The position numbers and the translations under genes are program-made. Positions 3,734 to 63,729 of a stretch of 64,000 nt of DNA are shown piece by piece (positions within the stretch are counted from its first letter, which is position 1; the number at the start of each line of letters is the position of its first letter). This stretch comes from an uncultured bacterium. Its GTDB lineage: Bacteria; Patescibacteriota; Microgenomatia; Levybacterales; UBA12049. Below the pieces are notes generated by a model. It worked only from the letters and a program-made list of their open reading frames with translations, had not been told where the DNA came from and made no database searches. The stretch lies in contig CAWGXL010000002.1 of assembly GCA_963826535.1 (NCBI GenBank), positions 96,654 through 160,653 of the forward strand, read 5' to 3'.

Positions 3734-4273
3734 GTGATTGAGATGAGATTGAAAGAAGCTTTTGAAAGATATGTTCCAGAGGCGGCTAAAAAATTTATTC
3801 CTCTCGAAGCAGAATCTTTAGGGCATTTCGCAGACCTAGTTAAAAGCGAAAATTGCACCAGAGTTCGTACTATACCAGTCATAAAAATAAAGTATTATAG
3901 TCCTAGTTCAAGAAGAGCTATTCCCCTTGCAGAATACGAATTCTCAACAAGATATGCTTCAAAAACACGGGAACATAGACAAATTGTATTTAATGAGCCA
4001 CACACGCAGGGTAATTGTTATTTATATAATGGTGAGGATAAAGATAAATTTAGAAGGGCAGCGGAATTAAGGGGCCTTGTGACTGCTGAGGCTCGATTAG
4101 GAGAACTACATCATAGCCTAATTGTTGAACGAAATTATGGTGTGCGGACAGAAGGACCAACAAAACATTGGCATTTCAATGATAGAATCCAATTTCAAGT
4201 TGAAGTAGCAAGGCATGATATAAAGCCATACCCTAAATTAGTCCCTAAAAGCGATCTTAATCGCGCAGGTTAA
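3734..4273 (+). CDS. Hypothetical protein
   Basis: 179-aa ORF with no recognisable motif. Its 3' end overlaps the convergent rsmI by 17 nt. Confidence 0.45.
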   Translation: MIEMRLKEAFERYVPEAAKKFIPLEAESLGHFADLVKSENCTRVRTIPVIKIKYYSPSSRRAIPLAEYEFSTRYASKTREHRQIVFNEPHTQGNCYLYNGEDKDKFRRAAELRGLVTAEARLGELHHSLIVERNYGVRTEGPTKHWHFNDRIQFQVEVARHDIKPYPKLVPKSDLNRAG

Positions 4274-4982
4274 ACAGCAGAACAAACTCCCCTTTGGGAG
4301 CTATCTTTTGAAAATGCCTGAGCGCTTCTGAAATTTTTTCCCTGCGTATTTCTTCATGGACTTTAGTTAATTCCCGGCATAGAACTATTTGAATATCTCC
4401 TGTTTCCTTTTTTAATTCATCAAGCGTCGTAATTAATTTATGCGGAGCTACAAAGAGGATAACCGTTGATCTTATAAAGTCTTGTGATTTTTTAATGTTT
4501 TCAAAAAATTTCTGGCGGTGGCCTGATTTATGCGGAGGATAACCAAGAAATAGAAATTTATCCGTAGGTAATCCGGATAAAGCCAAGGCTGTTATTATTG
4601 CTGATGGGCCAGGAATTGCTTCGATTTTTATTCCCATGCGAATACATTCACGTATGAGTTTGAAACCTGGGTCAGAAATAGCAGGCGTACCCGCATCCGT
4701 CGCAAGCGCAATTTTTTGACCTTTTTGCAAAAGTGATAAAATTTCCGGGATCCGGCGTAATTCAATTTGCTCATAATAGGAGAGTAAGTGGGGTTTATGA
4801 CTTTTTGCACTGCCATTGCGAATCAAATCATGGTATGGCACACTCATCGTATCCAATAAAATACCTGTTCTTCGCGTATCTTCGCAAGCAATAACATCCA
4901 CTTCAAATAAAACTTTAATAGCTCGCAACGTAATGTCCTGCAAATTGCCAATCGGCGTTGATACAATATAAAGCGTCCCCAT
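4257..4982 (-). CDS. rsmI: 16S rRNA (cytidine1402-2'-O)-methyltransferase
   Basis: YIVSTPIGNLQDITLRAIKVL...DVIACEDTRRTGILL...GTPAISDPG are hallmark RsmI (tetrapyrrole-methylase fold) motifs. Length is 241 aa. Confidence 0.85.
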   Translation of the reverse strand: MGTLYIVSTPIGNLQDITLRAIKVLFEVDVIACEDTRRTGILLDTMSVPYHDLIRNGSAKSHKPHLLSYYEQIELRRIPEILSLLQKGQKIALATDAGTPAISDPGFKLIRECIRMGIKIEAIPGPSAIITALALSGLPTDKFLFLGYPPHKSGHRQKFFENIKKSQDFIRSTVILFVAPHKLITTLDELKKETGDIQIVLCRELTKVHEEIRREKISEALRHFQKIAPKGEFVLLFNLRD

Positions 4983-5003: not shown

Positions 5004-5630
5004 TCAAAACTTTCTGACCAGGGCGACGACTTTCCCCTGGATGCGGATGCTTTTGGGGTAGATGGGTTCCATTTGTGAGTTGGCAGGTCTTAGGACGACA
5101 ACACCATCCTGAAGATAAAATTTCTTTAGAGTCGCCAGGTTATCATCCACCAGCGCGACAACTATTTCACCGTTTTTGGCTTGCTGCGCGCGTTCAATAA
5201 TAACGTAATCTCCATCCAGAATGCCGTCATCGATCATTGATTCTCCCTTTACTTGTAAAGCATAAGCTGTTTTTGTGCCGGTTATCATAGCGGCGGATAT
5301 TTGAAATGAAGCATTGGGGTCAACATGCGGCTCCAGGGGTTTGCCGGCCGCAATATAGCCCATAAGCGGCAGTTCAATCGAGGGCTCAACTCCCAAAAAA
5401 GTATGTAAGATATTTTCGTCCTTTATCTTTAAAACGCGCGCGTTTCCCTCTACCTTTTGCACATATCCCTTATCAACAAGACTTCGGATAATGACGTGAA
5501 TTGTCGAGACACTTCGGTGGCCTGTAGCTCTTGCTATTTCAACCAATGTTGGAGAATATGCATGTTTGTTTTGAAACTGCGCGAGGAATTCTAATACTTG
5601 TCTTTCTTTTTTATATAAAACTCCAGGCAT
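5004..5630 (-). CDS. lexA: LexA repressor (S24 peptidase, SOS regulator)
   Basis: N-terminal winged HTH. Ala-Gly cleavage site (IAAGKP). Ser-Lys dyad (GESM...K). Length is 208 aa. Confidence 0.85.
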   Translation of the reverse strand: MPGVLYKKERQVLEFLAQFQNKHAYSPTLVEIARATGHRSVSTIHVIIRSLVDKGYVQKVEGNARVLKIKDENILHTFLGVEPSIELPLMGYIAAGKPLEPHVDPNASFQISAAMITGTKTAYALQVKGESMIDDGILDGDYVIIERAQQAKNGEIVVALVDDNLATLKKFYLQDGVVVLRPANSQMEPIYPKSIRIQGKVVALVRKF

Positions 5631-5640
5631 TATAAAAAAA

Positions 5641-5667
5641 TATACGATATTCGTATAATTTTGTCAA
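5641..5667 (-). promoter_or_regulatory. lexA promoter with an overlapping perfect palindrome, candidate LexA operator
   Basis: The minus strand reads TTGACA-aaattatacgaatatcg-TATATT-tttttata-ATG. This is a -35 box, 17-nt spacer and -10 box, with the ATG about 8 nt after the -10 box (leaderless). TATACGA-N3-TCGTATA spans the spacer and the -10 box. Confidence 0.5.
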
Positions 5668-5791
5668 GTAGACTTAAGTGTACAAACAATATCATCTTTA
5701 GAAGTAGGTTGCTTTGTTTACTATAGTGTGATATTGTGCAAATAGTAAAAGCCCAGAACCTGCCTAACAATCGTGCCAGTCATTAAAAAAC

Positions 5792-7285
5792 ATGACTAAA
5801 CATAGGAAAGGCACAGATACATTTAAAAGGTTAATTACTCAAATCAGTAAGCCTTTATTAAGGTCAGAAATACTTTTCCCTGAATTATCCCGAGCCTCGC
5901 CTGCTCCAATTCTCATAGCTGATACCCGGACAAGAATATATTATGTTAACCCTGCATGGGAAAAGCTTTCCGGCTACAGTTTTAAAGAAGTTAAAGGTAA
6001 AAACCCTAAGTTCCTGCAAAGTGGTAAGACACCAAAACGGGTATTTAAAAAACTCTGGCAAGCACTTACGAAAGGGGAGTCTTTTACAACCGAAGAAATA
6101 ATAGACAGGCGGAAAGATGGCACAGAATATCAGTCCTACTCGATTTATTTTCCAATAAAAAGAAATGACAAAATAATGTATTATGTTCAGTTGCAGCATG
6201 ATATCACTGAACGTATGCGCCTCCTAAAGATAATTCATGAGAAGGAAGAAATGCTTCGCCTTATTATCGATAATGCGGTGGGCTACGCAATGTTCATGCT
6301 TGATAAACGAGGCAATATAGAGAGCTGGAATACAGGGGCAGAGCGATTGATTGGATATACGGGAAGGGAGGTTATAGGTAAGTATTTTTCTATGTTTTAC
6401 GCAAGAGATGATGTTACAAAGAGAAAACCCTGGAAACTACTGGCAAAAGTAGTTAAGAAGGGGCTCTTTGAGGAAGAGTTTTTGCAAGTCAAAAAAAACG
6501 GCACAAACTTTTGGGCGCATATAACCCTCTCTGCCGTAATGAGCAAAAGAGGAGCGTTAAAAGGATTTGTCCAAATTACCCGCAATATCTCAGCAGAAAG
6601 AGAGCTTGATCGGCAAAAAGACGCATTTATCGGTATTGCCTCTCATGAGTTAAAAACACCCATTACTACACTGAGCGCATATACTCAAATTCTGGAAAAA
6701 CGATTAAAAGATGATAAGAAAAATTCGTACTTCCTTTCAAATATTAAGGCGCAAACAGATAGGCTCGTGAGTCTTATCGATGATCTGTTAAATGTGAGTA
6801 GAATTGATTCAGGAAAACTAGATTTAAATTTAAAAAAATTTGACCTTAACACTCTAATCAAAAAAGTAGTTGTAGATTTCCAATACACAACGGATACTCA
6901 TATAATTACAGAAGAGGGAATCTTGGAAAATAAAGTAATTGGAGATGAGGTTCTTCTTGAACAAGTAATTATTAATTTACTTACAAATGCAATAAAATAC
7001 TCACCAATTGCAAACAAGGTTACCATCCACCTTTCAGCCAACCATAACCAGGCAATAGTCGCCGTGCAGGATTTTGGCATAGGAATTTCAAAAAAAGATA
7101 TTTCAAAAGTATTTGAGAGGTTTTATAGAATAAGAGATAAAGAAAAAGGGAGAGTCTTAGGGTTTGGGCTTGGACTGTATATTTCCTCAGAAATCATTAA
7201 AAAGCACCGAGGTAAAATTTGGGTTGAAAGCGAGAAAGGGAAAGGTAGCATCTTCTACTTCTCATTACCATTAGGGAAAAAATAA
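5792..7285 (+). CDS. Cytoplasmic sensor histidine kinase with two PAS domains
   Basis: PAS-like repeats, then the HisKA H-box ASHELKTPITTL and HATPase_c motifs NLLTNAIKYS, DFGIGIS, GFGLGLYIS. No TM segment. Confidence 0.85.
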   Translation: MTKHRKGTDTFKRLITQISKPLLRSEILFPELSRASPAPILIADTRTRIYYVNPAWEKLSGYSFKEVKGKNPKFLQSGKTPKRVFKKLWQALTKGESFTTEEIIDRRKDGTEYQSYSIYFPIKRNDKIMYYVQLQHDITERMRLLKIIHEKEEMLRLIIDNAVGYAMFMLDKRGNIESWNTGAERLIGYTGREVIGKYFSMFYARDDVTKRKPWKLLAKVVKKGLFEEEFLQVKKNGTNFWAHITLSAVMSKRGALKGFVQITRNISAERELDRQKDAFIGIASHELKTPITTLSAYTQILEKRLKDDKKNSYFLSNIKAQTDRLVSLIDDLLNVSRIDSGKLDLNLKKFDLNTLIKKVVVDFQYTTDTHIITEEGILENKVIGDEVLLEQVIINLLTNAIKYSPIANKVTIHLSANHNQAIVAVQDFGIGISKKDISKVFERFYRIRDKEKGRVLGFGLGLYISSEIIKKHRGKIWVESEKGKGSIFYFSLPLGKK

Positions 7286-19656: not shown

Positions 19657-20514
19657 TTATCCAATATCCTGAAGAAAATCCCGAACTGTTTTTATATATT
19701 TTTCTCTTTCGGTCCAGTGTGCCATATGAGCACTCTTTTCAAAAACTTCCATCTTGGCATTGGGAATTAGACTTTGAAAGTATTTCGTTGATTCGGGTGA
19801 TGCTTCATCAAAACGCCCGCACATTAGAAGAACCGGAACATTTATTTTGTGCAGCTTATTGCTCAAATCAAAATTTTTAAGAGTCCCAATTGGGTTGAAT
19901 TCTTTAGGCCCCCACATATATGTATAAAGTTCAACATTCTTTTTATGTCTAGCTTTTAAGTTTCCTGTAGGGAGCTTATCAATTCTAGAAATATGCCGAT
20001 AAAAAAACTCATCCGAAGCTTTTTTGTATTCTTCTGACTTATCGTCACCTCTTTTAAGAGCTATCTGCATGGCTTTTGGAAATTGATTTAGAAGTTTTTC
20101 TACATCCTTCTCCCATTGAGGCGTACTGAGATATGGACTGGAAAGAGTAAGGCTTTTTATGCCTTTAGGGTTAGTAAGAGCAAATGTAACTCCAAGCGCA
20201 GCACCCCATGATTGTCCAAGTATGTGATATTGCTTTAGACCAAGTTTTTTAACAACTGTTTGAAGTTCACTGACGAAATAGTCAACTGTCCATTGGGATT
20301 TGTCTGTTGTCCTTTCTGAATTTCCGCACCCAAGCTGGTCATAAAAGATTATATTGCGTTCATCTGCAAGATCTTCTAATGACTCTATTGAATCATGAGG
20401 AAAGCCGGGTCCGCCGTGGAGAGTTAGAAGGGGAATTGAATTAGAATCACCAATTATTTCATACCAGACTTTACCCTTATCTGTAATAATGAAGCCTTCA
20501 TTCCTTCTTTTCAT
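19657..20514 (-). CDS. pip: Proline iminopeptidase-like alpha/beta hydrolase (S33 family)
   Basis: LTLHGGPGFPHD (GGPG motif). Nucleophile elbow GQSWGAAL. C-terminal His region. Confidence 0.7.
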   Translation of the reverse strand: MKRRNEGFIITDKGKVWYEIIGDSNSIPLLTLHGGPGFPHDSIESLEDLADERNIIFYDQLGCGNSERTTDKSQWTVDYFVSELQTVVKKLGLKQYHILGQSWGAALGVTFALTNPKGIKSLTLSSPYLSTPQWEKDVEKLLNQFPKAMQIALKRGDDKSEEYKKASDEFFYRHISRIDKLPTGNLKARHKKNVELYTYMWGPKEFNPIGTLKNFDLSNKLHKINVPVLLMCGRFDEASPESTKYFQSLIPNAKMEVFEKSAHMAHWTEREKYIKTVRDFLQDIG

Positions 20515-21654: not shown

Positions 21655-22563
21655 TCAAGCTAATTGAGCTGCAATATATTCCTTTAACTGCTTTAAAAGT
21701 AAATCAATATTAGAAGAATCATTTCTTTCAATGGATTCGTAGAGATTTGTTACCGGTAAATCTCCTGCATAGAATTTCCGTCTTTTATCAAAATATTCAT
21801 CAACTTCTAAATAGTTTTTATAAACAGTTTTTAAGAAAATCTCACCATATCTATCAAAAAACTTAAAGTCATTAGCTGGATCTGCTATGCGTAATGAGAA
21901 ATCAATAATCCCGTTCATCTTGTGTGTCACCGGATCAATAATTATATGTTCAGGAAGCATATCAGAATGCGTAACCCTCATTTCAAATGGATGGTCTTTA
22001 GTTAAGATGTAAAAGTCCTTTACTGATTGTTCAATCCATTTTTGTTCCTGGACTGATAAAAGTGAAAAAAAAGATTCTCTGTCCTTTTCTAAAAATTCCT
22101 TAAAGTATTCCCCATAATCTTGAGGACTCACAAGCGATTCAATACCCATTTTTAGTGCATCTTCTTTCGAAAACGAATGGAGGCTTGAAAGAAAATTCCC
22201 CATGTCTATCGCTATATTAACTAACTCCTGTTCTGTCAAAGAAGAAGCCATTTTTCTTGAAAGTCTAATTCCGGGAATGAATTCATAAGTTTGATAATTT
22301 ATCCCGGACTCATTATCGAAATGACCAGTAATTTGTTGAATTGCTACAGGTGAGATCTGAGCAAATTTTATTAGTAAAGCGTTTTCAACACGGTCACTCT
22401 CTCCAAGTGCTTCCGTCCGCGGAAATCGAAATGCATGAAGATTATCTACCAATAAAACATAGTGATCATATCCATCATCAAATAATTTAATTTTATCAGA
22501 AGTGATATCCGGGTAATGTTTTACAAGGATAGGTAAATATTTTTCTATTACATCAATTACCAT
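21655..22563 (-). CDS. Aminoglycoside/choline-kinase-like phosphotransferase (APH family)
   Basis: Catalytic loop HSDMLPEHIIID (H-x-D-x4-N-like). IDFS DFG-equivalent. Confidence 0.65.
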   Translation of the reverse strand: MVIDVIEKYLPILVKHYPDITSDKIKLFDDGYDHYVLLVDNLHAFRFPRTEALGESDRVENALLIKFAQISPVAIQQITGHFDNESGINYQTYEFIPGIRLSRKMASSLTEQELVNIAIDMGNFLSSLHSFSKEDALKMGIESLVSPQDYGEYFKEFLEKDRESFFSLLSVQEQKWIEQSVKDFYILTKDHPFEMRVTHSDMLPEHIIIDPVTHKMNGIIDFSLRIADPANDFKFFDRYGEIFLKTVYKNYLEVDEYFDKRRKFYAGDLPVTNLYESIERNDSSNIDLLLKQLKEYIAAQLA

Positions 22564-29003: not shown

Positions 29004-29429
29004 CTAATGTACTTTACTTAGATCTCGGTTAACAAATGTTACTCCAAAAGCAAGCAGTTCTTCTTTATGCGGCGCGCTTTCTTCAATTGGATTCCAGATA
29101 TAAATCGCCTTTTTTAAATAAAAGGCGAGACCGATTTCCATAAGAACATTTGCACCGATATAACCCTTAATGCCATTCTTTTCATTATTGATGACTAAAA
29201 TACTATCTCCTTTTGCGATTTCATTAAAATTAGTTAAGATGAATTCCCTTTTTTGTTCAGGACTATTAACATCTTTAAAATGGGAGACCTCAAAGTCGTT
29301 CTTCTTTTTCATTATCTGTGCGGATACAGGTATATTTACCTTGAATCCTTTTACAATTAGCTCTTTTTCAATCTCAACCAACTCATTATAAAATGCCATA
29401 CTGGCACAAAGAAAAATTGTCTTTTTCAT
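29004..29429 (-). CDS. Nucleoside 2-deoxyribosyltransferase-like protein
   Basis: IFLCASMAFYNE...GYIGANVLMEIGLAFYLKKAIYIW fits the PF05014-like core (G..D.GT.fE.G.A.a..KP). Confidence 0.5.
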   Translation of the reverse strand: MKKTIFLCASMAFYNELVEIEKELIVKGFKVNIPVSAQIMKKKNDFEVSHFKDVNSPEQKREFILTNFNEIAKGDSILVINNEKNGIKGYIGANVLMEIGLAFYLKKAIYIWNPIEESAPHKEELLAFGVTFVNRDLSKVH

Positions 29430-32793: not shown

Positions 32794-32940
32794 ATGTTGC
32801 TCCCCCAGCCGAGGATTAGTATAAATATAGACTTTACGGCTATTATACAGGCTTTTCAGGATATTCGATATATGGGAGAACTAAGACAAAGGTGGAGTGA
32901 AATTAAAAAGTTACAAGTTGATAGTTTTGCTTTTACTTAA
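32794..32940 (+). CDS. Small conserved ORF (48 aa), copy A of a three-member repeat family
   Basis: MLLPQPRISINIDFTAIIQAFQDIRYMGELRQRWSEIKKLQVDSFAFT. About 75% nucleotide identity to 36884-37030. Confidence 0.4.
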   Translation: MLLPQPRISINIDFTAIIQAFQDIRYMGELRQRWSEIKKLQVDSFAFT

Positions 32941-33490
32941 TAACTTTTAATAGAACACTCGTTCTTACTGTTGTTACCTCTTCTACTTTTATTTTTTCAA
33001 GCTTTACCTTATCTGTGTCTATATTTTCAAATAGTCTTAGGCCTTTTCCAAGGAGAACAGGCATAATATCTATCTGCAACTCATCGCATAGCCCAGCATT
33101 AAGGCATTGCTGAATGGTGCTTGCGCCTATTACCTGAACATCTTTCTCACTCGCTGCTTTCTTTGCCTTAAGAATTGCACTCTCAATACCATCAGTTACA
33201 AATGTAAAAGTAAGTTTGTCATTTCCTTTGGGATACTTTGCTGGAGGTGTATGTGTCAAGACAAAAATGGGAGTTTGAAATTCATAGTCATCGTTAGCCC
33301 ACGAAAATGGGTCTGCCATCTCATACACATGTCTCCCCATAATAACAGCACCTGTGTTTTTAATCATTTCCTGAAAAGTTGGAGCATCATGGAGTTCACT
33401 AAAATCTGAATAAAGCTTTTCCACACTTCCATTACTGTCATTGATAAACCCGTCCAAAGACATGGTCATACCAGCGATTACTTTTCCCAT
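32933..33490 (-). CDS. Dihydrofolate reductase-family protein (RibD C-terminal domain-like)
   Basis: MTMSLDGFINDSNG...VIMGRHVYE...VIGASTIQQCL...LLGKGLRLFE pattern. Confidence 0.65.
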   Translation of the reverse strand: MGKVIAGMTMSLDGFINDSNGSVEKLYSDFSELHDAPTFQEMIKNTGAVIMGRHVYEMADPFSWANDDYEFQTPIFVLTHTPPAKYPKGNDKLTFTFVTDGIESAILKAKKAASEKDVQVIGASTIQQCLNAGLCDELQIDIMPVLLGKGLRLFENIDTDKVKLEKIKVEEVTTVRTSVLLKVIK

Positions 33491-37802: not shown

Positions 37803-38711
37803 CTAAATCTTCCACCCAAGCTCTATCTTAATCTCCTTCACTGCTTTTTCATATTTGTCTTTCGTTAGCTGGTTATTTAATATGCAATACTTTTTACTAG
37901 TTAGTCCAAAGCAACCGATGCAATCAGAGCAGTTTGTTAGCCTTTCACTATAGTAACAATTTGAGCAACCTTGACTTGATACAAGAAACGCAGAGTCATA
38001 GCAGTCGGTTACCTCTATCGTTTCATAACATCGCTCGCATGCAGTTTTTATTACAGGGTTTCCATATGTGAAAAGGACATCCCAACAATTCTTTGTGTTA
38101 AAACCACTATTATACATATATCCGCAGTTTTCAGCAGTATAAGTATTAAAGCCCCAATAACAGTTCTTTGAATCATATATGTAATCTCCATATGGACTGT
38201 TTTCGCTATTAAGTTGAATGCTTGCAGGATGTGGAATCTGTTTTTTTAACTCAAACATTTGTTTTAGAATTTTTTCAGGTTTTTCCTTATTTAGTACTTC
38301 CACCTTTTTCAAATATTCATCTTTGGTATATTGCCGGTTAAATATACAATATTTTTTATGAGTTAGTGCAACACAACCAAAACAATCAGTGCAAGTGTTT
38401 AAAAATGATGAATAATGGCAATCAGTAGAGTTATTACAATTTATAAGATAAGTACAGCTATTACAATTATTGCAATCAATAGATTCATAACATTTTTCTG
38501 AGAATACCATCTGATAAGAATCTACGACCTTATTACCATTTGCCAATGTTGTATAGATAGAATCTGATAGTTCTAATACACAGAAGCAGTAAAAGCAATT
38601 CTTGATATTATCTACAAAATCTACGTATACACTATCAACAGCTGAGCGAATCATAGCAGACGGTACAGGAATCGATTTTTTCAGAAGTTCATATTTTTCC
38701 AGAAAATTCAT
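37803..38711 (-). CDS. Cys-rich protein, paralog B (internally duplicated CxxC-rich modules), unknown family
   Basis: MNFLEKYELLKKSIPVP.... Two modules each contain NC..C...LINCNNSTDCH.S..LN.C.DC.GC..L..KKYCI.N.Q.TK. C-terminus is LGWKI. Confidence 0.6.
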   Translation of the reverse strand: MNFLEKYELLKKSIPVPSAMIRSAVDSVYVDFVDNIKNCFYCFCVLELSDSIYTTLANGNKVVDSYQMVFSEKCYESIDCNNCNSCTYLINCNNSTDCHYSSFLNTCTDCFGCVALTHKKYCIFNRQYTKDEYLKKVEVLNKEKPEKILKQMFELKKQIPHPASIQLNSENSPYGDYIYDSKNCYWGFNTYTAENCGYMYNSGFNTKNCWDVLFTYGNPVIKTACERCYETIEVTDCYDSAFLVSSQGCSNCYYSERLTNCSDCIGCFGLTSKKYCILNNQLTKDKYEKAVKEIKIELGWKI

Positions 38712-38715
38712 AATC

Positions 38716-39624
38716 TTATACCTTCCACCCAAGCCCTTTTTTTATATCTATTAAAGCTTTTTCATATTGCACTTTTGTTAGCTGATTATTAAGTATACAA
38801 TATTTTTTATTCTTCAAACCCACACACCCGAAACAGTCAGAGCAGTTTAAGAGCTTTGTACCGTAGTGACAATTCATGCAACCCTCACTATATGTTAAAA
38901 AAGCGCAGTTATAACAAAAATCAGTATAAACATTCTCATAACATAGCTCTGCAAAACGATTAGTCTCCGGAGTCCCTCCAGTATGAAATATATCCCAACA
39001 ATGCTTCGTTAAACCACAGAAGTACATAAATCCGGAATTTTCAGAATAGTAACCTTGAAATGCCCAGTAACAGTTCTTTGAGTTATAGATATAATTACCA
39101 TATGGACAGTTCTCGCTATTGGATTGCTGACTTGCAGGATGAGGGATTTTAGGTTTAATTTCAAGCATTTGGTTAAGAATCTTTTGAGGATCTTGCTTTT
39201 TTAAATCCTCAACTTTTTTCAAATATTCATCTTTGGTATATTGCCGGTTAAATATACAATATTTTTTGTGATTTAACCCGACGCATCCAAAACAGTCAGA
39301 GCAAGAGTTTAATAAAGCGGAAAAATGGCAATCTGTAGAATTATTACAATCAATTAAATATGTGGAGCTATAACACTTAGTACTTTCAATACATTCGTAG
39401 CATTTTTCCGACTCAGTCACAAAATCACAATCTACAAGTTTATTCCCCCAACCATAATATGTATAAATACTATCAAAAAGCCTAGTTCCATCAAAGCAAT
39501 AATAGTCGTTCTTTCCTATATAGACAGCATCTACATATTCGCACTCAACTGTATTAGGACCGATTGTTATCGCTGGCACGGGAACAGATTTCTTCAGAAG
39601 CTCATATTTTTCAAGGAAAGTCAT
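38716..39624 (-). CDS. Cys-rich protein, paralog A (internally duplicated CxxC-rich modules), unknown family
   Basis: MTFLEKYELLKKSVPVP.... Same architecture as paralog B, with about 60% identity by eye. C-terminus is LGWKV. Confidence 0.6.
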   Translation of the reverse strand: MTFLEKYELLKKSVPVPAITIGPNTVECEYVDAVYIGKNDYYCFDGTRLFDSIYTYYGWGNKLVDCDFVTESEKCYECIESTKCYSSTYLIDCNNSTDCHFSALLNSCSDCFGCVGLNHKKYCIFNRQYTKDEYLKKVEDLKKQDPQKILNQMLEIKPKIPHPASQQSNSENCPYGNYIYNSKNCYWAFQGYYSENSGFMYFCGLTKHCWDIFHTGGTPETNRFAELCYENVYTDFCYNCAFLTYSEGCMNCHYGTKLLNCSDCFGCVGLKNKKYCILNNQLTKVQYEKALIDIKKGLGWKV

Positions 39625-39639
39625 TGTACCTAATTTTTA

Positions 39640-42000
39640 CTATAATCTTGCCCGTTGGGAGATTTCGGCTTCGATTACCTCGGCGTTGCGGCCGAATTTA
39701 AGTCTCGAGAGTTCTTTTATCAGGTCGGCGACTCTTACGTTGCTAAGTTCTTTTTCGCGGCTAATATCTTTAGTGGTATCAAGCGAGAAAGGCGGTACAG
39801 GCTCACCGTTTACCAGGGTTCTCATATAAGCATTATATTTGTCAACATTTATTAAATCTGTTTCATTAAACATCGGTTGGAATTCGCGCTGTAAATAGCT
39901 GGCATCATTGACGCCGACCCGGAATGAAGCAATTGTCCCCACGTTTCCGAAAATTGCGTTTTTAATCTCTTCCTCCATCTGGCCTATGAATTGATTTGCC
40001 ACGATAAGATTGAGGCGGTATTTACGGGCTTCGGAAAGGATTTGGGCAAAATCGGGAGTAGCGAAATTTTGGAATTCGTCAACGTAGAGGTAGAAGTCTC
40101 GTCGTTTGTCCATATCCATATCCTGGCGTGACATAGCGGCAACCAGTATCTTGGGAACTAAGACCAAGCCCAAAAAGCTGGCGTTTTCTTCGCCGATTTT
40201 TCCTTTAGATAAATTAATAAGAAGGATTTTTCTTTCATCCATAACTTTACGGAAATCGAATGAGCTTTTGGATTGGCCAATTATATTTCTTATCATTTTA
40301 TTTGTAACGAAACGGCCGAATTTAGAGACAATATAATCCATAACCTCGGATTTGTGAAAGTCGGATGTTGTCGCGATTTGATCAGTCCAGTAACGGCGGA
40401 TAATAGGATCCTGAACTTTGGGCAATAACTCCTGTACATAGGCTGGATCCGTAAGAATACGTACAACCTCAATAAAGGTGCTTCCCGGCTCGTACATGAC
40501 AGTTAACATAGCATTTCGAACAGCATGTTCAAAACGTGGTCCGATAATACCGGTTTTATTTGGATCGAAGAGCTTATACATTAACCCTATTATAGAGTTG
40601 GTAACAAAATGTTTTTGTTGTTCTGTCTGGGCATCAAGCATATTGAACCCCATCGGCCGCTCTAAATCTGATGGATCAAATAAAATAACTTCTTCGGCGC
40701 GGTTGGGCGGAATTTGGCGCAATACATCTTCTACTAAATCTCCATGTGGATCAACAACGGCTATTCCTTCGCCCGCGTGAATATCTTGCATGATCATACT
40801 TTTAAGGAATTCGCTTTTTCCGGTACCTGTTTTTCCGATGATATACGTATGCCTTCTTCTATCGTCTTGGCTAACATATACTCCACGATTGAGACCACGG
40901 AATGTGCTTTTGCCAAGGTAAAGACCGCTTGTCGGTAGATTGGATGGCGCCGGTGCACGTTTGGATGTCAGCCAGTGAATACCGGGCGTTGTTATACTTT
41001 TATTTGGGAAATGGAAGATGGTTGCGAGTTCCTCACTGGTATGTAATGATGACTGACCCCACAGCGGGAAGTATCTATAAATAAAATCATGCATAAAAAA
41101 ACCTTTCATGAGGTGTTTGTTTTTTCTGAAATAATTTTGACCGGCGTATTGACCGAAAGTATTGATAATATTATTTAAGTGTGATTGTGCTGCTTGTTTT
41201 GTAGTAGAACATACAACAATCCTTATAACAGTATCAAACCCAACTTTGTTGATAGAACCTTCAATGCCCTCAAGCTCTTTCGCATCGGTTTTATATTTAG
41301 CAGTTTCCGGGCTGGCTTCATTTTTTTTAGTTTTACTAATATATCCCCTCCCTGATTTTTTCCAGTGATCACCTGCAGGCCTGACCAATATTTGAATTGT
41401 CGCCCCTTCTCCTTCACCCATTTTTGCAAGGACAGAGGTAATCGATGACAACGGGTCAACCGGCATATCTTTGAAGACTCTTATAGGTATATAGGAACTA
41501 TTTTTCTGATGTAATGAAGCAAAAGCTACTTTTCCATTTTCAGTAAAGATTTGGTATTCAGTTCCTACTACGTTGCCCGCTTTCTGTTTTGCAGTTGGAT
41601 CATTGACCGGCACGACTTCAGCATCCGGATAGGAGCCATTAATTTGCTTTTCTATGAAATCCCGATGTTTATTCGGAACCCAGACATAGAAACGAATTTC
41701 ACCCGGAAGTCCTACGACTTCAAAAGACAGGTGAGGTTGTGTTTTAAAGAATTCGAGCCATCCGATTTCCCTAAGCGATGCAAGTCCCGAAAACATTTGC
41801 TCGGCGGCATCTATTTTGATCTCATTTTCCCGTGGAACTGTTACCTGCAATAGGGTCGAATTTAGTGACTCTTGTTCGCGGTTTCTATTCCGAAACCAGA
41901 TAAGCAATGTATATCCAAATAACCACAAAAACCCTATCGTAACTGAAATAACAATTAAAGTAATAATAACGGTTATAATGAGAGAATTTATATTATCCAT
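39640..42000 (-). CDS. Membrane-anchored P-loop ATPase of the type IV secretion coupling-protein superfamily (TraG/TraD/VirD4-like, with a TraM-recognition-type C-terminal region)
   Basis: N-terminal hydrophobic hairpin. Walker A YIIGKTGTGKSEF. Walker B LYVDEFQNF. C-terminal ...ANQFIGQMEEEIKNAIFGNVGTIASFRVGVNDASYLQREF resembles TraG-D_C. Confidence 0.65.
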   Translation of the reverse strand: MDNINSLIITVIITLIVISVTIGFLWLFGYTLLIWFRNRNREQESLNSTLLQVTVPRENEIKIDAAEQMFSGLASLREIGWLEFFKTQPHLSFEVVGLPGEIRFYVWVPNKHRDFIEKQINGSYPDAEVVPVNDPTAKQKAGNVVGTEYQIFTENGKVAFASLHQKNSSYIPIRVFKDMPVDPLSSITSVLAKMGEGEGATIQILVRPAGDHWKKSGRGYISKTKKNEASPETAKYKTDAKELEGIEGSINKVGFDTVIRIVVCSTTKQAAQSHLNNIINTFGQYAGQNYFRKNKHLMKGFFMHDFIYRYFPLWGQSSLHTSEELATIFHFPNKSITTPGIHWLTSKRAPAPSNLPTSGLYLGKSTFRGLNRGVYVSQDDRRRHTYIIGKTGTGKSEFLKSMIMQDIHAGEGIAVVDPHGDLVEDVLRQIPPNRAEEVILFDPSDLERPMGFNMLDAQTEQQKHFVTNSIIGLMYKLFDPNKTGIIGPRFEHAVRNAMLTVMYEPGSTFIEVVRILTDPAYVQELLPKVQDPIIRRYWTDQIATTSDFHKSEVMDYIVSKFGRFVTNKMIRNIIGQSKSSFDFRKVMDERKILLINLSKGKIGEENASFLGLVLVPKILVAAMSRQDMDMDKRRDFYLYVDEFQNFATPDFAQILSEARKYRLNLIVANQFIGQMEEEIKNAIFGNVGTIASFRVGVNDASYLQREFQPMFNETDLINVDKYNAYMRTLVNGEPVPPFSLDTTKDISREKELSNVRVADLIKELSRLKFGRNAEVIEAEISQRARL

Positions 42001-48247: not shown

Positions 48248-48658
48248 TTAGCGGGGCATTGGCTTGTAAATGATTGCTGATTTATTACAAGAAACTTTTA
48301 GATCAATTATTGTAGTTTTATCGTTCCCGGGTTTTGGTGTTATATCGTATTTTTTTATACTTCTTAGATCCCAAAAGGAAAACATTTCTCTATGAGAAAT
48401 GGTTTGCGGTAACTCATTACTTAAATCTGGGTTGTTTATTTTAGTTTCCTCTGTAGCCCTTATCTCTAGAGAACCACCATTTTTAACTATTGCTAGCAAG
48501 CCTCCTATTTTTTCCGGCTCATTTATTGTCGGATGTATGATTTTGCCTTTTTCTTTTGGTCCTGTATTGCAATCAACTAAATCTGATCTATCTCCTTCTG
48601 CACAACCTACAAGTAAAGTTGTTGCTAAGGCAAGCTCTCCTAGTTCTATTCCTCTCAT
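48248..48658 (-). CDS. Putative lipoprotein
   Basis: Signal peptide with a lipobox (LLVGC). Confidence 0.5.
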   Translation of the reverse strand: MRGIELGELALATTLLVGCAEGDRSDLVDCNTGPKEKGKIIHPTINEPEKIGGLLAIVKNGGSLEIRATEETKINNPDLSNELPQTISHREMFSFWDLRSIKKYDITPKPGNDKTTIIDLKVSCNKSAIIYKPMPR

Positions 48659-59807: not shown

Positions 59808-60376
59808 TTAAATTTTCAAAGTTTTTTTTACAACGTTAATTCCTTCGACTAATCTATCAACATCCTCCTTAGTATTATATAAATACAGAGATGCTCTCGC
59901 TGTAGCCGGTACACCTAGAGCTTGCATAGTAATTTGTGCGCAGTGATGGCCGGAGCGGATTGCAATATTTTGTCCATCGAGAATTTGAGCGATATCATGC
60001 GCATGGGCGTTTGTTATATTAAAAGAAAAAATACCGAGCCGGTCTTTATATGTTTTTGGACCGTATAATTTTAAGAAAGGTAAATTTTTTAATTTTTCAA
60101 GTGCATATTTAGTTAGTTCATTTTCATAACTAGCGATTTTTTCCCAACCAATTTTTTTTAAATATGAAATTGAGGCTGACAAACCTACAACCCCTTCAAG
60201 ATTACCGGTTCCTGCTTCAAATTTATCAGGAAGATCAGCCCAAGTTGCTTTATTTTTGGTTACAGTTTTTATCATATGACTACCGACATGAAGCGGATCC
60301 ATTGTTTCGAGCAAATCTTCCTTTGCCCATAGCACACCGACCCCCGTTGGCCCAAGCATTTTGTGAGCGGAGAAGG
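59808..60376 (-). CDS. sufS: Cysteine desulfurase SufS, C-terminal half only. The 5' part is truncated at the low-GC/high-GC junction.
   Basis: ...AFSAHKMLGPTGVGVLWAKEDLLETMDPL...RSGHHCAQ.... The PLP-Lys motif (FS-A/G-HK) is the first recognisable element. Everything N-terminal in the ORF track is translated from unrelated high-GC DNA. Confidence 0.75.
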
Positions 60377-61328
60377 CAAGACGTTCTTCCTGGGGTATGC
60401 CGCGGTGCAGGCGGGAGGCGACCCCTCGCTGCTGTTCGATGACCTCGTCCGCAACGCGCCGGGATTCTCGAAGCCCTGGCTGCAAGCCGCCTTCGTGCTG
60501 CTCGTGGTCGGGTATGGAACGAAGATGGGATTGGCCCCCATGCATACGTGGAAGCCCGACGCGTATGGCGAGGCGCCGGGGATCGTGGGCGCCCTGATGG
60601 CCGGCGCCCTGACGAGCTGCGCCTTCCTCGCTCTTTCCCGGGTCTTTCACGTTCTGACCGCCGCGGGAGAGGGAGCATTTGCTGGGCGCATCCTGGTCGT
60701 GCTCGGGCTCTTCTCCATGGCCGTCGCCGGCGTGTTCACGGTCCGTCAGCGAGACCTGAAGCGCATGCTGGCGTATTCGAGCGTCGAGCACATGGGAATT
60801 CTGGCGTTCGGTCTCGGCCTCGGCGGCAGCGGTATCTTCGGCGCCTTCCTGCACATGCTGAACAACGGGATCATCAAGGGCGTGATGTTCCTCTCGGCCG
60901 GGAACATCCACCGGGCCTACGACAGCAAGTACGTCGAGGACGTGTCGGGGGCGCTCCGGCGCGTCCCGTGGTCCGGCGCCTTGTTCCTGGCCGGGTTCTT
61001 CGCGGTGACCGGCTCTCCGCCCTTTGGCCCGTTCGTCAGCGAGCTGTCCATTCTCAATGCCGCGATGGAACAGCATCGCTGGGGCGTCGCGGCGGCCATG
61101 CTGGGTCTGCTTCTCGTCGTGTTCATGGGGATGGGGGTGACGGTGCTCGGAGTCGTCCAGGGCGAGGCGGGGCCGAGCTCGAGCCAGTCCCGATTCCGGG
61201 ACGGCGTTCTCAACACATTGCCGGCGCTGGTGCTCCTGGCCATGTCGTTCGGCATGGGAGTGGCCATGCCCGACGCGATCCAGTCGATGGTCCGGGAGGC
61301 CGCGGACTACGTCGGAGGCCGGCGATGA
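60363..61328 (+). CDS. NuoL/NuoM/NuoN- or HyfB/HycC-like proton-translocating membrane subunit. C-terminal ~320 aa only, 5'-truncated at the junction.
   Basis: MGLAPMHTWKPDAYGEAPGIVGALMAG and KRMLAYSSVEHMGI are complex-I antiporter-subunit signatures. High GC. Its stop overlaps the next gene's ATG (ATGA). Confidence 0.7.
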   Translation: MSGEGKTFFLGYAAVQAGGDPSLLFDDLVRNAPGFSKPWLQAAFVLLVVGYGTKMGLAPMHTWKPDAYGEAPGIVGALMAGALTSCAFLALSRVFHVLTAAGEGAFAGRILVVLGLFSMAVAGVFTVRQRDLKRMLAYSSVEHMGILAFGLGLGGSGIFGAFLHMLNNGIIKGVMFLSAGNIHRAYDSKYVEDVSGALRRVPWSGALFLAGFFAVTGSPPFGPFVSELSILNAAMEQHRWGVAAAMLGLLLVVFMGMGVTVLGVVQGEAGPSSSQSRFRDGVLNTLPALVLLAMSFGMGVAMPDAIQSMVREAADYVGGRR

Positions 61329-62860
61329 GCCTCCGGGCGGGGCGCGCGGTCGAGAATGGCGAAGCCGTCCCGGTGGGCGAAGTCCCCGAGCTGTCGAACG
61401 AGGAGTTCCGGCAGGTCGTGATCGAGGCCTGCCGTCGGGAGCGGCGAGTGTCGGCGCTGTTCGGCGACTCGAGAGACGGCGAGGGTGGCCGCGATCTCGT
61501 GGAGCTCTACGCGGTACTGGCCGAGGAGGACACGGCGTCGCTGCTCCTCGCCCGGACCCGGATCGAGGCCGACGTCTTCGAGTCGCTGACGCCGGATTGC
61601 CCGCAGGTGCACCTGTTCGAGCGCGAGATTGCCGAGCAGTACGGGTGCGTGCCGCGGGGGCACCCGTGGCTGAAGCCCGTTCGGTTCCATGCCCCGTACC
61701 GTCGCCCGGCCTCGGGCGTCGAGACGGGGCCCAGGCCGCCCGTGGTCGGAGTGATGGACTACTACCGGGTCGAGGGCGACGAGGTGCACGAGGTGGCGGT
61801 CGGGCCCGTGCACGCGGGGATCATCGAGCCGGGCCACTTTCGCTTCCAGTGCCACGGGGAGACGGTGTTCCACCTCGAGATCTCGCTCGGCTACCAGCAC
61901 CGGGGCATCGAGCGGCACCTCGTCGGCGGTCCGACGCCCAGGACCGTGCACTACATGGAGACGCTCGCCGGCGACACGACGCTCGGTCACGCGACCGCGT
62001 ACTGCCACGCCGTGGAAGCCCTGGCCCGGATCCACGCCCCGGCGAAGGCGCAGTTCATTCGCGGCATCGCGCTCGAGCTGGAGCGACTGGCGAACCACGT
62101 CGGCGATCTCGGTGCTCTCGCGGGCGATGTCGGCTATCTGCCCACGGCCTCGTTCTGCGGGCGCATCCGCGGCGACTACCTGAACATGAGCGCGCTCTTG
62201 TGCGGGAATCGATTCGGCCGGGACCTGACTCGCGTGGGCGGCGTGCGCTTCGACATCGACGAAGCGGTGCGAGAGAGCCTTGTCACGCGGCTGGACGCCG
62301 CGGAGCGGGACACCGCGAGTGCCGTGAACCTGCTCTGGGAGTCGTCGTCGGTGATGTCGCGGTTCGAGGATGCCGGGAGCATCTCGGAGGAGGTCGCGCG
62401 GGAGATCGGTCTCGTGGGCCCGGCCGCCCGCGCCAGTGGCCTGGGACGCGACGTGCGAACCGACTTTCCCAAGGGCGTCTACCGCTACAGCCACGTGCCG
62501 ATGTGCACGTGGAGCACCGGTGATGTCTTTGCGCGGGCGTACGTCCGCTGGCTCGAGATCCAGAACTCGATCCGCTTTATCCGCGAGGAGCTTCAGGAGC
62601 TGCCGGAAGGCGCGCTCCAGGTGAGTGTGCCCATCTTGATGCCCGAGAGCATCGTGGTGTCGCTCGTCGAGGGCTGGCGTGGGGAGATCTGCCACGTGGC
62701 GATCACCGACGAGGCGGGGAAGTTCCGCCGCTACAAGGTCGTCGACCCCTCGTTCCACAACTGGTCCGGTCTCGCGCTCGCCCTCCGCGGACAGGAGATC
62801 TCGGACTTTCCGTTGTGCAACAAGAGCTTCAACCTGTCCTACGCGGGCTTCGACCTGTGA
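61325..62860 (+). CDS. NuoC-NuoD fusion / HycE-like large subunit of a group-4 hydrogenase-related complex, apparently lacking the [NiFe] cysteine ligands
   Basis: NuoC-like FEREIAEQYGCVPRGHPWLKPV, then GPVHAGIIEPGHFRF. At the L1 position it reads ETLAGDTTLGHATAYCHAVE (no CxxC). At the C-terminus it reads VDPSFHNWSG (no DPCxxC). Start taken at the ATG at 61325 rather than the track's 60548. Confidence 0.7.
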   Translation: MSLRAGRAVENGEAVPVGEVPELSNEEFRQVVIEACRRERRVSALFGDSRDGEGGRDLVELYAVLAEEDTASLLLARTRIEADVFESLTPDCPQVHLFEREIAEQYGCVPRGHPWLKPVRFHAPYRRPASGVETGPRPPVVGVMDYYRVEGDEVHEVAVGPVHAGIIEPGHFRFQCHGETVFHLEISLGYQHRGIERHLVGGPTPRTVHYMETLAGDTTLGHATAYCHAVEALARIHAPAKAQFIRGIALELERLANHVGDLGALAGDVGYLPTASFCGRIRGDYLNMSALLCGNRFGRDLTRVGGVRFDIDEAVRESLVTRLDAAERDTASAVNLLWESSSVMSRFEDAGSISEEVAREIGLVGPAARASGLGRDVRTDFPKGVYRYSHVPMCTWSTGDVFARAYVRWLEIQNSIRFIREELQELPEGALQVSVPILMPESIVVSLVEGWRGEICHVAITDEAGKFRRYKVVDPSFHNWSGLALALRGQEISDFPLCNKSFNLSYAGFDL

Positions 62861-62901
62861 TTCGTCTCCTTCGAGCTCGAGTGCTTCAGGGTCATCGGAC
62901 C

Positions 62902-63729
62902 ATGCCGTTTCCGGACGGGCCTCCGCCGGAGCTGCCCGCGCGGTTTCGCGGCCGGCCCGAGATCGACGCCGGCCTGTGCCGGTCCGGCTGCCGCGCGTGC
63001 GCGGAGGCCTGTCCGACCCAGGCGATCACGGGCGGGGAGTCGGCTCAGATCGACCTCGGCCGCTGCCTCTTCTGCACCGACTGCGTGGAGGCCTGTCCCG
63101 AGGGCGCGATCTCCTTCACCAATGACTATCGTCTCGCGGTGCGCCGGCGCGAGGACCTCGTGGTCTGCGGCAATCAGGATGCGCTCCCGCTCGCCGCGGA
63201 GCTGGGTGCGGAGCTGCATCGCCTGCTCGGGCGGTCGCTCAAGCTGCGCCAGGTATCGGCGGGCGGCTGCAATGGGTGCGAGCTCGATACCAATGTCCTC
63301 AACACGGTGGGCTGGGACCTCGGGCGGTTCGGGGTGCAATTCGTGGCGTCTCCTCGACACGCGGACGGCCTGCTCATCACCGGCGCGGTCTCCCAGAACA
63401 TGAAGCTCGCGCTCCAGAAGACCTACGATGCGATCCCCGCGCCGAAGATCGTCATCGCCGTGGGGGCATGCGCCGTCGGCGGCGGCCCGTTCGCCGGCCA
63501 CGCGGAGGTGAACGACGGGGCCACCGATCTGCTGCCGATCGACCTGCTGATACCGGGCTGTCCGCCGCACCCCCTCACGATCCTCGACGGCATCCTCCGG
63601 TTGCTGGGTCGAGTGGACGGCGGGAAGCCCCGGTCGAGTCCGGCGATCGAGCAACCCGGGCAGTCAGCGTGGCGAGCCAGGCCGGGTGGTGGCACGCCGC
63701 CCGGCCGTGTGGGCGAACAGCGGCCGTGA
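62902..63729 (+). CDS. Fusion of a 2x[4Fe-4S] ferredoxin (HycF/NuoI-like) with a NuoB/HycG-like small subunit
   Basis: CRSGCRACAEACP and CLFCTDCVEACP cluster motifs. Then GGCNGCE...VASPRHADGLLITGAVS...VGACAVGGGPF...IPGCPPHP (N2-cluster-type ligands). An alternative upstream start at 62815 is possible. Confidence 0.7.
   Translation: MPFPDGPPPELPARFRGRPEIDAGLCRSGCRACAEACPTQAITGGESAQIDLGRCLFCTDCVEACPEGAISFTNDYRLAVRRREDLVVCGNQDALPLAAELGAELHRLLGRSLKLRQVSAGGCNGCELDTNVLNTVGWDLGRFGVQFVASPRHADGLLITGAVSQNMKLALQKTYDAIPAPKIVIAVGACAVGGGPFAGHAEVNDGATDLLPIDLLIPGCPPHPLTILDGILRLLGRVDGGKPRSSPAIEQPGQSAWRARPGGGTPPGRVGEQRP

What the first reader, a model, noticed from the sequence alone, without database searches (positions are those of the whole stretch)
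5631..5670. Perfect palindrome TATACGA-N3-TCGTATA overlapping a leaderless lexA promoter: candidate lineage-specific SOS box
On the lexA coding strand the upstream region reads TTGACA-(17 nt)-TATATT and then 8 nt to the ATG, so the transcript is probably leaderless. The 17-nt palindrome covers the spacer and the -10 box. This is the classic position for LexA autorepression.

The motif does not match the E. coli (CTGT-N8-ACAG) or Gram-positive (CGAAC-N4-GTTCG) boxes. It may define the SOS operator of this lineage.
Basis: partly seen in the sequence, partly recalled or inferred. Interest (0 to 1): 0.65.

Follow-up and report, generated by a model that had tools for sequence, protein, structure and literature searches.

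The report
Palindromic LexA operator in Levybacteria
A 17-base palindrome sits inside the promoter of the DNA-damage repressor gene lexA of an uncultured Levybacteria (CPR) bacterium; it is conserved in about 35 related species and is most likely the repressor's own binding site, but in mirrored form, whereas relatives use two copies pointing the same way.

Summary
TATACGA-TAT-TCGTATA lies at 5641-5657. On the lexA strand the layout is TTGACA, 17 nt, TATATT, 8 nt, ATG. The gene (5004-5630, minus strand) is a bona fide LexA with cleavage site and catalytic dyad.

A 7-N3-7 palindrome is not rare here: 10 occur in 60 kb against about 7 expected. Its weight comes from conservation. Thirty lexA promoters of a Levybacteria crown group plus five from its closest relatives carry TAYRCGA-N(3-5)-TCGTATA at the same place, while the flanks drift.

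Deeper Levybacteria, Curtissbacteria and Parcubacteria carry direct repeats with an 11-nt period instead. That is the architecture the literature reports for Patescibacteria. In one Parcubacteria locus the direct repeat also precedes recA.

The window's palindrome therefore looks like a LexA operator whose upstream half-site was flipped. The recognition helix is unchanged. One wing residue (64) tracks the switch.

The leaderless reading is supported and is genome-wide, not special to lexA.

No second site was found in about 620 kb of related DNA. uvrA lacks it. recA of this clade could not be reached. Autorepression is well supported by inference; a wider SOS regulon is untested.

The parts
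5641..5657 (.). Perfect inverted repeat TATACGA-N3-TCGTATA, the proposed LexA operator. Arms are 5641-5647 and 5651-5657.
   Evidence: Sequence. The same dyad sits at the same promoter position in 30 crown-group lexA promoters and in L201-L205.
5662..5667 (-). -35 hexamer TTGACA of the lexA promoter.
   Evidence: Conserved as TTGACA, TTGATA or TTGAAA in relatives.
5639..5644 (-). -10 hexamer TATATT. Its first four bases are the outer TATA of the promoter-proximal arm of the palindrome.
   Evidence: TATATT or TATAAA is invariant in relatives.
5631..5638 (-). The 8 nt (TTTTTATA) between the -10 box and the ATG. There is no Shine-Dalgarno sequence. The expected transcription start is at or within 3 nt of the A of the ATG (leaderless, or a 1-3 nt leader).
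   Evidence: The same 8-nt gap occurs in L001 and L201-L205. Genome-wide, -10 boxes peak at 6 and 8 nt before ATGs.
5658..5661 (-). A-rich flank (AAAT) between the -35 box and the dyad. It mirrors the T-run after the other arm (5634-5640), giving an imperfect extended symmetry AAAWTATACGA...TCGTATATTTT.
   Evidence: The consensus AAAATAyACGAA.t.TCGTATAttTTtt is seen in 24 N4 relatives. In L022 the symmetry extends to 16-nt arms.
5004..5630 (-). lexA coding sequence, 208 aa. Recognition helix at residues 40-51 (SVSTIHVIIRSL), wing G62-N63-A64-R65, cleavage site A95-G96, catalytic residues S131 and K169.

Best explanation
The dyad is the autoregulatory operator of LexA.

Proposed mechanism: a LexA dimer binds the two TCGTATA half-sites, which face each other. 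These lie in the spacer and the upstream part of the -10 box of the single strong lexA promoter. Binding keeps RNA polymerase off the promoter. After DNA damage, RecA-stimulated self-cleavage at A95-G96 (catalysed by S131 and K169) releases the promoter. A transcript that starts at or next to the ATG is then made.

Proposed origin: the site is a derivative of the Patescibacteria direct-repeat LexA box. The promoter-proximal half-site (T)TCGTATA is retained. The upstream TTC half-site, 11 nt away, has been replaced by an inverted copy (TAYRCGAA) in the same slot between the -35 box and the proximal half-site.

Shown here: the sequence anatomy, LexA identity, conservation of the dyad, the direct-repeat versus inverted-repeat distribution across lineages, and the unchanged recognition helix.

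Inferred: LexA binding, repression, inducibility, the transcription start, and the direction of the evolutionary change.
For: 1. Protein identity. The protein is a LexA equivalog with intact cleavage and catalytic residues aligned to E. coli LexA.

2. Position. The dyad overlaps the spacer and -10 box of the best promoter in the region.

3. Conservation.
- All 30 crown and grade lexA promoters with the inverted repeat score 13-24 bits with a half-site matrix. Nothing else in 540 kb of the same loci reaches 13 bits.
- The closest relatives, L201-L205, also carry it.
- CGAA and TCGTATA are invariant, while sequence upstream of the -35 box is not conserved.

4. Not a divergent promoter. The dyad is kept in L204, where the upstream neighbour runs in the same direction as lexA.

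5. Continuity with the known box.
- Deeper Levybacteria have TTC-N8-TTCGTATA.
- Curtissbacteria have TTCGGGTTTTCTTTGG.
- Parcubacteria and Uhrbacteria have GTTCTATTTTTGTTCTAT at the same promoter position.
- In L066 the same repeat lies 3 nt before the recA ATG.
- PMC7739468 cites the Patescibacteria study as a case of a direct-repeat LexA motif.

6. Operator and protein co-vary between clades. Helix 3 is SVSTIHxxIRSL with TTCGTATA, SLATVHEHL with TTCGGG, and SPSTVHVHIQAL with GTTCTAT.

7. Within Levybacteria helix 3 is the same in both groups. Wing residue 64 is A or S in 29 of 30 inverted-repeat proteins and T, L, N or M in 20 of 20 direct-repeat proteins.
Against: - No second copy was found. 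None occurs in the window. None occurs in about 620 kb around lexA in crown-group genomes, even at low stringency: 22 weak hits against about 56 in shuffles.
- uvrA and uvrC, 3-9 kb from lexA in an 87% relative, have plain promoters.
- The gap between arms varies between species (N3, N4, N5). That is unusual for a LexA box, which is normally measured rigidly (own knowledge of the E. coli LexA-DNA structure, 3JSO).
- The promoter-proximal arm cannot be separated from selection on the -10 box.
- Variation in the left arm (TAYRCGA) is not mirrored in the right arm, so there is no compensatory evidence for dyad symmetry.
- There are no binding or expression data.
Confidence: 0.72

Rival explanations
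1. The dyad is the operator of a different dimeric transcription factor that controls lexA in this clade. LexA itself would bind elsewhere or not autoregulate.
For: No second site at any repair gene was found. The same words, TATACGA-N5-TCGTATA, occur as tandem promoter-embedded palindromes in unrelated metagenome contigs such as L178, so other regulators use similar sites.
Against: The proximal half-site is continuous with the TTC-type LexA repeats of all sister lineages at the same promoter position. Operator type tracks LexA sequence, through helix 3 between clades and residue 64 within Levybacteria. No conserved neighbouring regulator gene is seen, and the gene neighbours differ between L201 and L204.
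Confidence: 0.1
2. It is a promoter-architecture element with no repressor. Either the spacer and -10 context is conserved for RNA polymerase, or the two arms are back-to-back -10 boxes of divergent promoters: TATATT for lexA and TATAAT at 5654-5659 on the plus strand towards the PAS kinase gene.
For: The plus strand reads TCGTATAAT, a perfect -10 hexamer. The right arm overlaps the lexA -10 box. This genome relies heavily on -10 elements.
Against: - The invariant bases are CGAA and TCG, which are not -10 consensus bases.
- Left arms such as TACACGA and TACGCGA destroy the plus-strand TATAAT in many relatives.
- The dyad persists where the upstream gene runs in the same direction as lexA (L204).
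- Other promoters in the window lack it.
- There is no usable -35 box for the plus-strand hexamer.
Confidence: 0.08
3. It is a chance palindrome in AT-rich intergenic DNA.
For: Ten perfect 7-N3-7 palindromes occur in 60.3 kb against 6.8 expected. The pattern with up to 3 mismatches is not enriched.
Against: It is present at the same promoter position in about 35 species whose LexA proteins are only 66-91% identical and whose flanking DNA is unconserved.
Confidence: 0.02
4. It is a structural hairpin or cruciform element (RNA or DNA) rather than a protein-binding site.
For: As single-stranded DNA the 40-mer folds at -5.5 kcal/mol, z = -3.0 against shuffles.
Against: The stem is 7 AT-rich pairs with only two G-C pairs. 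It lies upstream of the predicted transcription start, so it is not in the lexA mRNA. No terminator-like site is called. Changes in the left arm are not compensated in the right arm, which argues against selection for pairing.
Confidence: 0.03

Closest known systems
Patescibacteria LexA-binding motif (Sanchez-Osuna, Barbe and Erill 2017, Environ Microbiol 19:3465). The paper could not be read here. PMC7739468 cites it as a direct-repeat LexA motif.
   Same: Same superphylum and same repressor family. Same location in the lexA promoter. The promoter-proximal half-site (T)TCGTATA is shared with direct-repeat Levybacteria. The centre-to-centre distance of the half-sites is about 10-12 bp, against an 11-bp period in the direct repeats.
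   Different: The upstream half-site is in inverted, not direct, orientation. There is no TTC 11 nt upstream. The gap varies from N3 to N5 between species. A recA site was shown here only for the direct-repeat type (L066).
Gram-positive (Cheo) SOS box CGAAC-N4-GTTCG of Firmicutes and Actinobacteria
   Same: It is a palindrome with CGAA and TTCG cores facing each other, and it serves LexA autoregulation.
   Different: CGAA and TTCG are 6 nt apart in the Cheo box but only 1-3 nt apart here. The outer bases here are TATA, not C/G. No GAAC-N4-GTTC occurs in the lexA promoter.
Alphaproteobacterial direct repeat GTTC-N7-GTTC
   Same: The Parcubacteria and Uhrbacteria relatives in this data set carry GTTC-N7-GTTC literally. 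The Levybacteria half-site keeps the TTC core.
   Different: The window's site has no such repeat. Its half-sites are inverted.
E. coli LexA box CTGT-N8-ACAG, with autorepression of lexA
   Same: The logic is the same: a dyad operator overlaps the repressor's own promoter and is relieved by RecA-dependent self-cleavage. The cleavage and catalytic residues align.
   Different: The half-site sequence is unrelated and the dyad is shorter (17 bp against 20 bp). No CTGT-N8-ACAG occurs in the promoter. E. coli lexA has a leader and two boxes (own knowledge).
Bdellovibrio bacteriovorus LexA box TTAC-N3-GTAA
   Same: It is a short palindrome with a 3-nt gap (quoted in PMC8565304).
   Different: The half-site differs (TTAC against TACGA), and there is no phylogenetic link.

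Membership tests
LexA repressor (protein) | N-terminal winged-helix LexA DNA-binding domain plus C-terminal S24 peptidase domain, scoring above the family cut-off. | tested here: met
   PF01726 at 1.7e-9 and PF00717 at 9.7e-28. TIGR00498 equivalog at 167 bits against a cut-off of 110.95.
LexA repressor (protein) | Ala-Gly cleavage site and Ser/Lys catalytic dyad. | tested here: met
   A95-G96, S131 and K169 align with E. coli A84-G85, S119 and K156 in the alignments to 7b5g and 3k2z.
LexA operator (SOS box) | Lies in the promoter of lexA itself and overlaps RNA polymerase recognition elements. | tested here: met
   The dyad at 5641-5657 spans the spacer and 4 nt of the -10 box.
LexA operator (SOS box) | Conserved at orthologous lexA promoters while the flanks diverge. 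| tested here: met
   30 of 30 inverted-repeat promoters score at least 13 bits. L201-L205 also carry it. See the information profile.
LexA operator (SOS box) | Further copies upstream of recA or other damage-response genes in the same genome. | tested here: inconclusive
   None were found in the window or in about 620 kb of crown-group loci. uvrA and uvrC lack it, but uvrA also lacks the direct-repeat box in sister lineages. recA of this clade was not present in any DNA that could be fetched.
LexA operator (SOS box) | Specific binding by the cognate LexA and de-repression after DNA damage. | not testable with these tools
   This needs EMSA or footprinting and expression data.
Patescibacteria direct-repeat LexA box | Two TTC-containing half-sites in the same orientation with an 11-nt period. 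| tested here: not met
   The window and the whole crown group have no TTC 11 nt upstream of TCG. They have CGA 3-5 nt upstream instead. Deep Levybacteria, Curtissbacteria and Parcubacteria do meet this feature.
Gram-positive Cheo box | GAAC-N4-GTTC core. | tested here: not met
   No match with up to 1 mismatch in 5631-5791.
E. coli-type SOS box | CTGT-N8-ACAG. | tested here: not met
   No match with up to 1 mismatch in 5631-5791.
Leaderless mRNA | The -10 box lies 6-9 nt before the start codon, and there is no Shine-Dalgarno sequence. | tested here: met
   The gap is 8 nt (TTTTTATA). Fifteen of 57 genes have a -10-like hexamer ending 6 or 8 nt before the ATG, and only 6 of 57 have an SD-like sequence.
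Leaderless mRNA | A mapped 5' end at the start codon. | not testable with these tools
   This needs 5'-RACE or dRNA-seq.

The most novel reading that the evidence does not exclude
Within one candidate phylum, LexA switched its operator from a direct repeat to an inverted repeat by flipping the upstream half-site in place. The recognition helix did not change. The half-site spacing now drifts between species (N3, N4, N5), and one wing residue (A/S64 against T/L/N/M) tracks the switch.

This would mean that the two DNA-binding domains of patescibacterial LexA are tethered loosely enough to accept either orientation. It would also suggest that a very small regulon, possibly lexA plus recA only, lets operator architecture evolve freely.
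Probability: 0.35. Interest if true: 0.7.

Novelty: new variant of a known kind. Interest (0 to 1): 0.5.

Why it matters
LexA is the textbook case of a repressor whose binding motif has changed repeatedly during evolution. How a dimer moves between palindromic and direct-repeat sites is an open question in that field.

This data set offers a fine-grained series. Levybacteria species with 60-90% identical LexA proteins and identical recognition helices carry either architecture at the same promoter slot. A single candidate residue tracks the difference. That makes the question testable with a handful of proteins and probes.

For annotation, it gives a usable search pattern for the SOS box of a widespread group of uncultured bacteria. 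It also shows that this genome is largely leaderless, which matters for calling start codons.

Tried and rejected
1. Metagenome-wide scan for TATACGA-N(3-5)-TCGTATA. None was next to lexA or looked like CPR DNA. L088 looked promoter-like but has no ORFs near the site.

2. Fetching the window's own contig. The look-up of encoding contigs found no record for three window proteins, including LexA.

3. recA of the crown clade. tblastn with E. coli RecA found recA only in L066, a Parcubacteria locus.

4. Low-stringency matrix scan for weak sites. There were fewer hits than in shuffles.

5. Testing uvrA and uvrC as regulon members. They were negative in both inverted-repeat and direct-repeat lineages, so they do not discriminate.

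6. Known box types. Cheo, E. coli and GTTC-N7-GTTC boxes are absent from the promoter and not enriched in the window.

7. Literature. Neither the 2017 Patescibacteria SOS paper nor the 2010 LexA-DNA structure paper is held. Only a citing sentence could be used.

8. Automatic anchoring of promoters mis-anchored several loci. Counts therefore rest.

9. A second lexA paralogue near lexA. None was found in any locus.

Full report
**What is in the sequence.** The plus strand at 5641-5657 reads TATACGA TAT TCGTATA, a perfect 7-N3-7 inverted repeat. The minus strand reads TTGACA (5667-5662), a 17-nt spacer, TATATT (5644-5639), then TTTTTATA and ATG (5630-5628). The promoter scan rates this 11 of 12, the best promoter-like site between 4900 and 5900. 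The dyad fills most of the spacer and the first four bases of the -10 box.

**The gene.** The ORF 5004-5630 (minus strand, 208 aa) has the LexA DNA-binding and S24 peptidase domains. It passes the NCBIfam LexA equivalog cut-off at 167 against 111 bits. It aligns along its whole length with solved LexA structures. A95-G96, S131 and K169 fall on the E. coli cleavage site and catalytic dyad.

**Is it more than chance?** Not by itself. The 60.3 kb low-GC part of the window holds 10 perfect 7-N3-7 palindromes against 6.8 expected. The pattern with up to three mismatches is not enriched, and neither is the half-site. The case rests on position and conservation.

**Lineage.** Homologues named by their sources are Candidatus Levybacteria or Levyibacteriota, in the Microgenomates group of the Patescibacteria/CPR.

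**Conservation across 85 lexA loci.** One genome-collection scan returned 80 lexA loci spanning 91% to 41% protein identity. Two look-ups added five loci from the closest relatives. Four promoter types appear.
- (a) A crown group that includes the window, plus some members of the grade below it. All have TTGACA-AAAA-TAYRCGA-N(3-5)-TCGTATA(T/A)(T/A)T. CGAA and TCGTATA are invariant, and A- and T-runs extend the symmetry. Sequence upstream of the -35 box is not conserved.
- (b) Deeper Levybacteria. They keep the promoter-proximal TTTCGTATA but have TTC (or TTT) exactly 11 nt upstream. This is a direct repeat, for example TTCGTATATTT TTCGTATATTT in L055. Some have a third unit.
- (c) Curtissbacteria-like loci have TTCGGGTTTTCTTTGG.
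- (d) Parcubacteria and Uhrbacteria have GTTCTATTTTTGTTCTAT, which is literally GTTC-N7-GTTC.

A half-site matrix built from the left arms scores all 30 type (a) promoters at 13-24 bits. Nothing else in 540 kb of the same loci reaches 13 bits.

**Link to what is known.** The 2017 Patescibacteria SOS paper is not held. PMC7739468 cites it among the cases where LexA evolved recognition of a direct repeat. That matches types (b) to (d). In L066 the type (d) repeat also ends 3 nt before the recA start codon. So in that lineage the lexA-promoter repeat behaves as an SOS box.

Operator half-site and recognition helix change together between clades:
- SVSTIHxxIRSL goes with TTCGTATA.
- SLATVHEHL goes with TTCGGG.
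- SPSTVHVHIQAL goes with GTTCTAT.

This is the main reason to assign the window's dyad to LexA rather than to another factor.

**The inverted-repeat group.** A neighbour-joining tree of the LexA proteins places all direct-repeat promoters at the base of Levybacteria and an all-inverted crown group that contains the window. Between them lies a poorly resolved grade with both types and some degenerate left halves (L024, L039, L040).

In both types the variable element occupies the same slot between the -35 box and the proximal half-site. Half-site centres are 10-12 bp apart, against the 11-bp period of the direct repeats. The simplest reading is that the upstream half-site was flipped in place.

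Helix 3 does not differ between the two Levybacteria types. The only position in residues 1-74 that separates them is residue 64, in the wing (G-N-X-R). It is A or S in 29 of 30 inverted-repeat proteins and T, L, N or M in 20 of 20 direct-repeat proteins. It aligns with S63 of E. coli LexA, next to R64. This correlation is not corrected for shared ancestry and is only a lead.

**Spacing.** The window and its nearest relatives (87-91% identity: L001, L201-L205) have N3. Most of the crown group has N4. L035, L036 and probably L011 have N5. If 8-nt half-sites (TATACGAA and TTCGTATA) are used instead, the gaps are 1-3, and L042 is a perfect 8-N1-8 palindrome.

This variability is unusual for a LexA box. 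E. coli LexA measures its box rigidly (own knowledge of structure 3JSO). I count it as evidence against, or as a sign of loosely tethered DNA-binding domains combined with a very small regulon.

**Leaderless reading.**
- The closest relatives keep 8 nt between the -10 box and the ATG.
- About half of all Levybacteria lexA genes have 6-10 nt there. The rest have leaders of 30-70 nt.
- In the window, -10-like hexamers end 6 nt (9 genes) or 8 nt (6 genes) before the ATG of 57 ORFs, against about one per other offset.
- Only 6 of 57 ORFs have an SD-like run.

A leaderless lexA is therefore plausible, but it is the genome's normal style, not a special feature.

**Regulon test.** This is the weak point.
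- No other site exists in the window.
- None exists in about 620 kb around lexA in crown-group genomes, even at 8 bits: 22 weak hits against about 56 in shuffles.
- uvrA and uvrC near lexA in L204 and L205 have ordinary promoters.
- uvrA is equally bare in direct-repeat Levybacteria and Curtissbacteria, so it is not a regulon member anywhere sampled and does not discriminate.
- recA of the crown group was in none of the DNA I could fetch.

**Rivals.**
- Another transcription factor (0.10). This is disfavoured by the continuity with LexA boxes and by the protein-operator co-variation.
- A pure promoter element, or back-to-back -10 boxes (0.08). The plus strand does read TATAAT at 5654-5659. However, the invariant bases are CGAA and TCG, many relatives lose that hexamer, and L204 keeps the dyad with an upstream gene that runs in the same direction as lexA.
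- Chance (0.02). This is excluded by conservation.
- A hairpin (0.03). The fold is weak at -5.5 kcal/mol, lies upstream of the transcription start, and shows no compensatory changes.

**Verdict.** The interpretation as a LexA autorepression site overlapping a probably leaderless promoter is well supported by comparative evidence (confidence about 0.7). The claim that it is the SOS box of a regulon is untested. It is a new variant of a known kind: a palindromic derivative, restricted to a crown group of Levybacteria, of the direct-repeat Patescibacteria LexA box.

Noticed in passing
window 60,330-64,000: GC content jumps from about 0.35 to 0.63-0.70 within about 50 bp near 60,330-60,360. A low-GC SufS-like gene (59808 onwards, minus strand) is cut off there. 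The high-GC part encodes NuoD/hydrogenase-like and NuoB-like proteins. This looks like a chimeric assembly or two joined contigs from different organisms.
   Followed up: partly
window 1-60,300, for example 19657-20514(-), 21655-22563(-), 29004-29429(-), 32933-33490(-), 48248-48658(-), 4257-4982(-): Leaderless organisation is genome-wide. TATAAT-like hexamers, often preceded by TG, end 6 nt (9 genes) or 8 nt (6 genes) before the ATG of 57 ORFs. Only 6 of 57 have an SD-like sequence. rsmI, just downstream of lexA, has its own such -10 box.
   Followed up: partly
window about 5668-5720 (minus strand); clearer in L010, L013-L015, L021, L047-L052: Upstream of the lexA -35 box, Levybacteria promoters carry phased TTTG(T/A)(C/A) repeats about 10-11 nt apart, for example TTTTGACCCC TTTAGTATCTC TTTGTACGA TTGACA in L013. 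This could be an UP-like or curved-DNA element, or the site of a second regulator.
   Followed up: no
L066 10690-10715: In a Parcubacteria contig, recA lies 8.6 kb from lexA. It has GTTCTATTATTGTTCTA, the lexA-promoter direct repeat, on the opposite strand, ending 3 nt before its ATG.
   Followed up: partly
L204/L205 13,833-19,856; L043-L058 and L061-L065 upstream of lexA: uvrA and uvrC are linked to lexA (2-9 kb away) in many Levybacteria and Curtissbacteria, but they have plain promoters with no LexA-type repeat.
   Followed up: yes
window 37803-42000 (minus strand): Two tandem paralogous Cys-rich repeat proteins (309 and 302 aa) lie next to a 786-aa VirD4/TraG-like ATPase. Relatives have a T4SS_pilin-domain gene near lexA.
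   Followed up: no
L178 2626-2666; also L109, L156, L124: Unrelated metagenome contigs carry the same TATACGA-N(3-5)-TCGTATA words inside promoters, twice in tandem in L178, next to phage-like HTH genes. Similar palindromes therefore serve as operators for other regulators.
   Followed up: partly
L023 9966-10000; L004 9950-10000: Some crown-group lexA leaders contain extra half-site-like words. L023 has TATACGAAAT abutting the ATG. L004 has TTCGTAC...ATACGAA in its leader.
   Followed up: no
window 5654-5659 (plus strand): The opposite strand of the palindrome reads a perfect TATAAT pointing towards the PAS histidine-kinase gene (5792-7285). It has no usable -35 box, and the leader would be 133 nt.
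   Followed up: partly
LexA alignment, linker region (window residues about 79-82): Deep direct-repeat Levybacteria LexA proteins (L043-L057) have a 5-residue insertion in the linker between the DNA-binding domain and the cleavage site. The crown group and the grade below it lack it.
   Followed up: no
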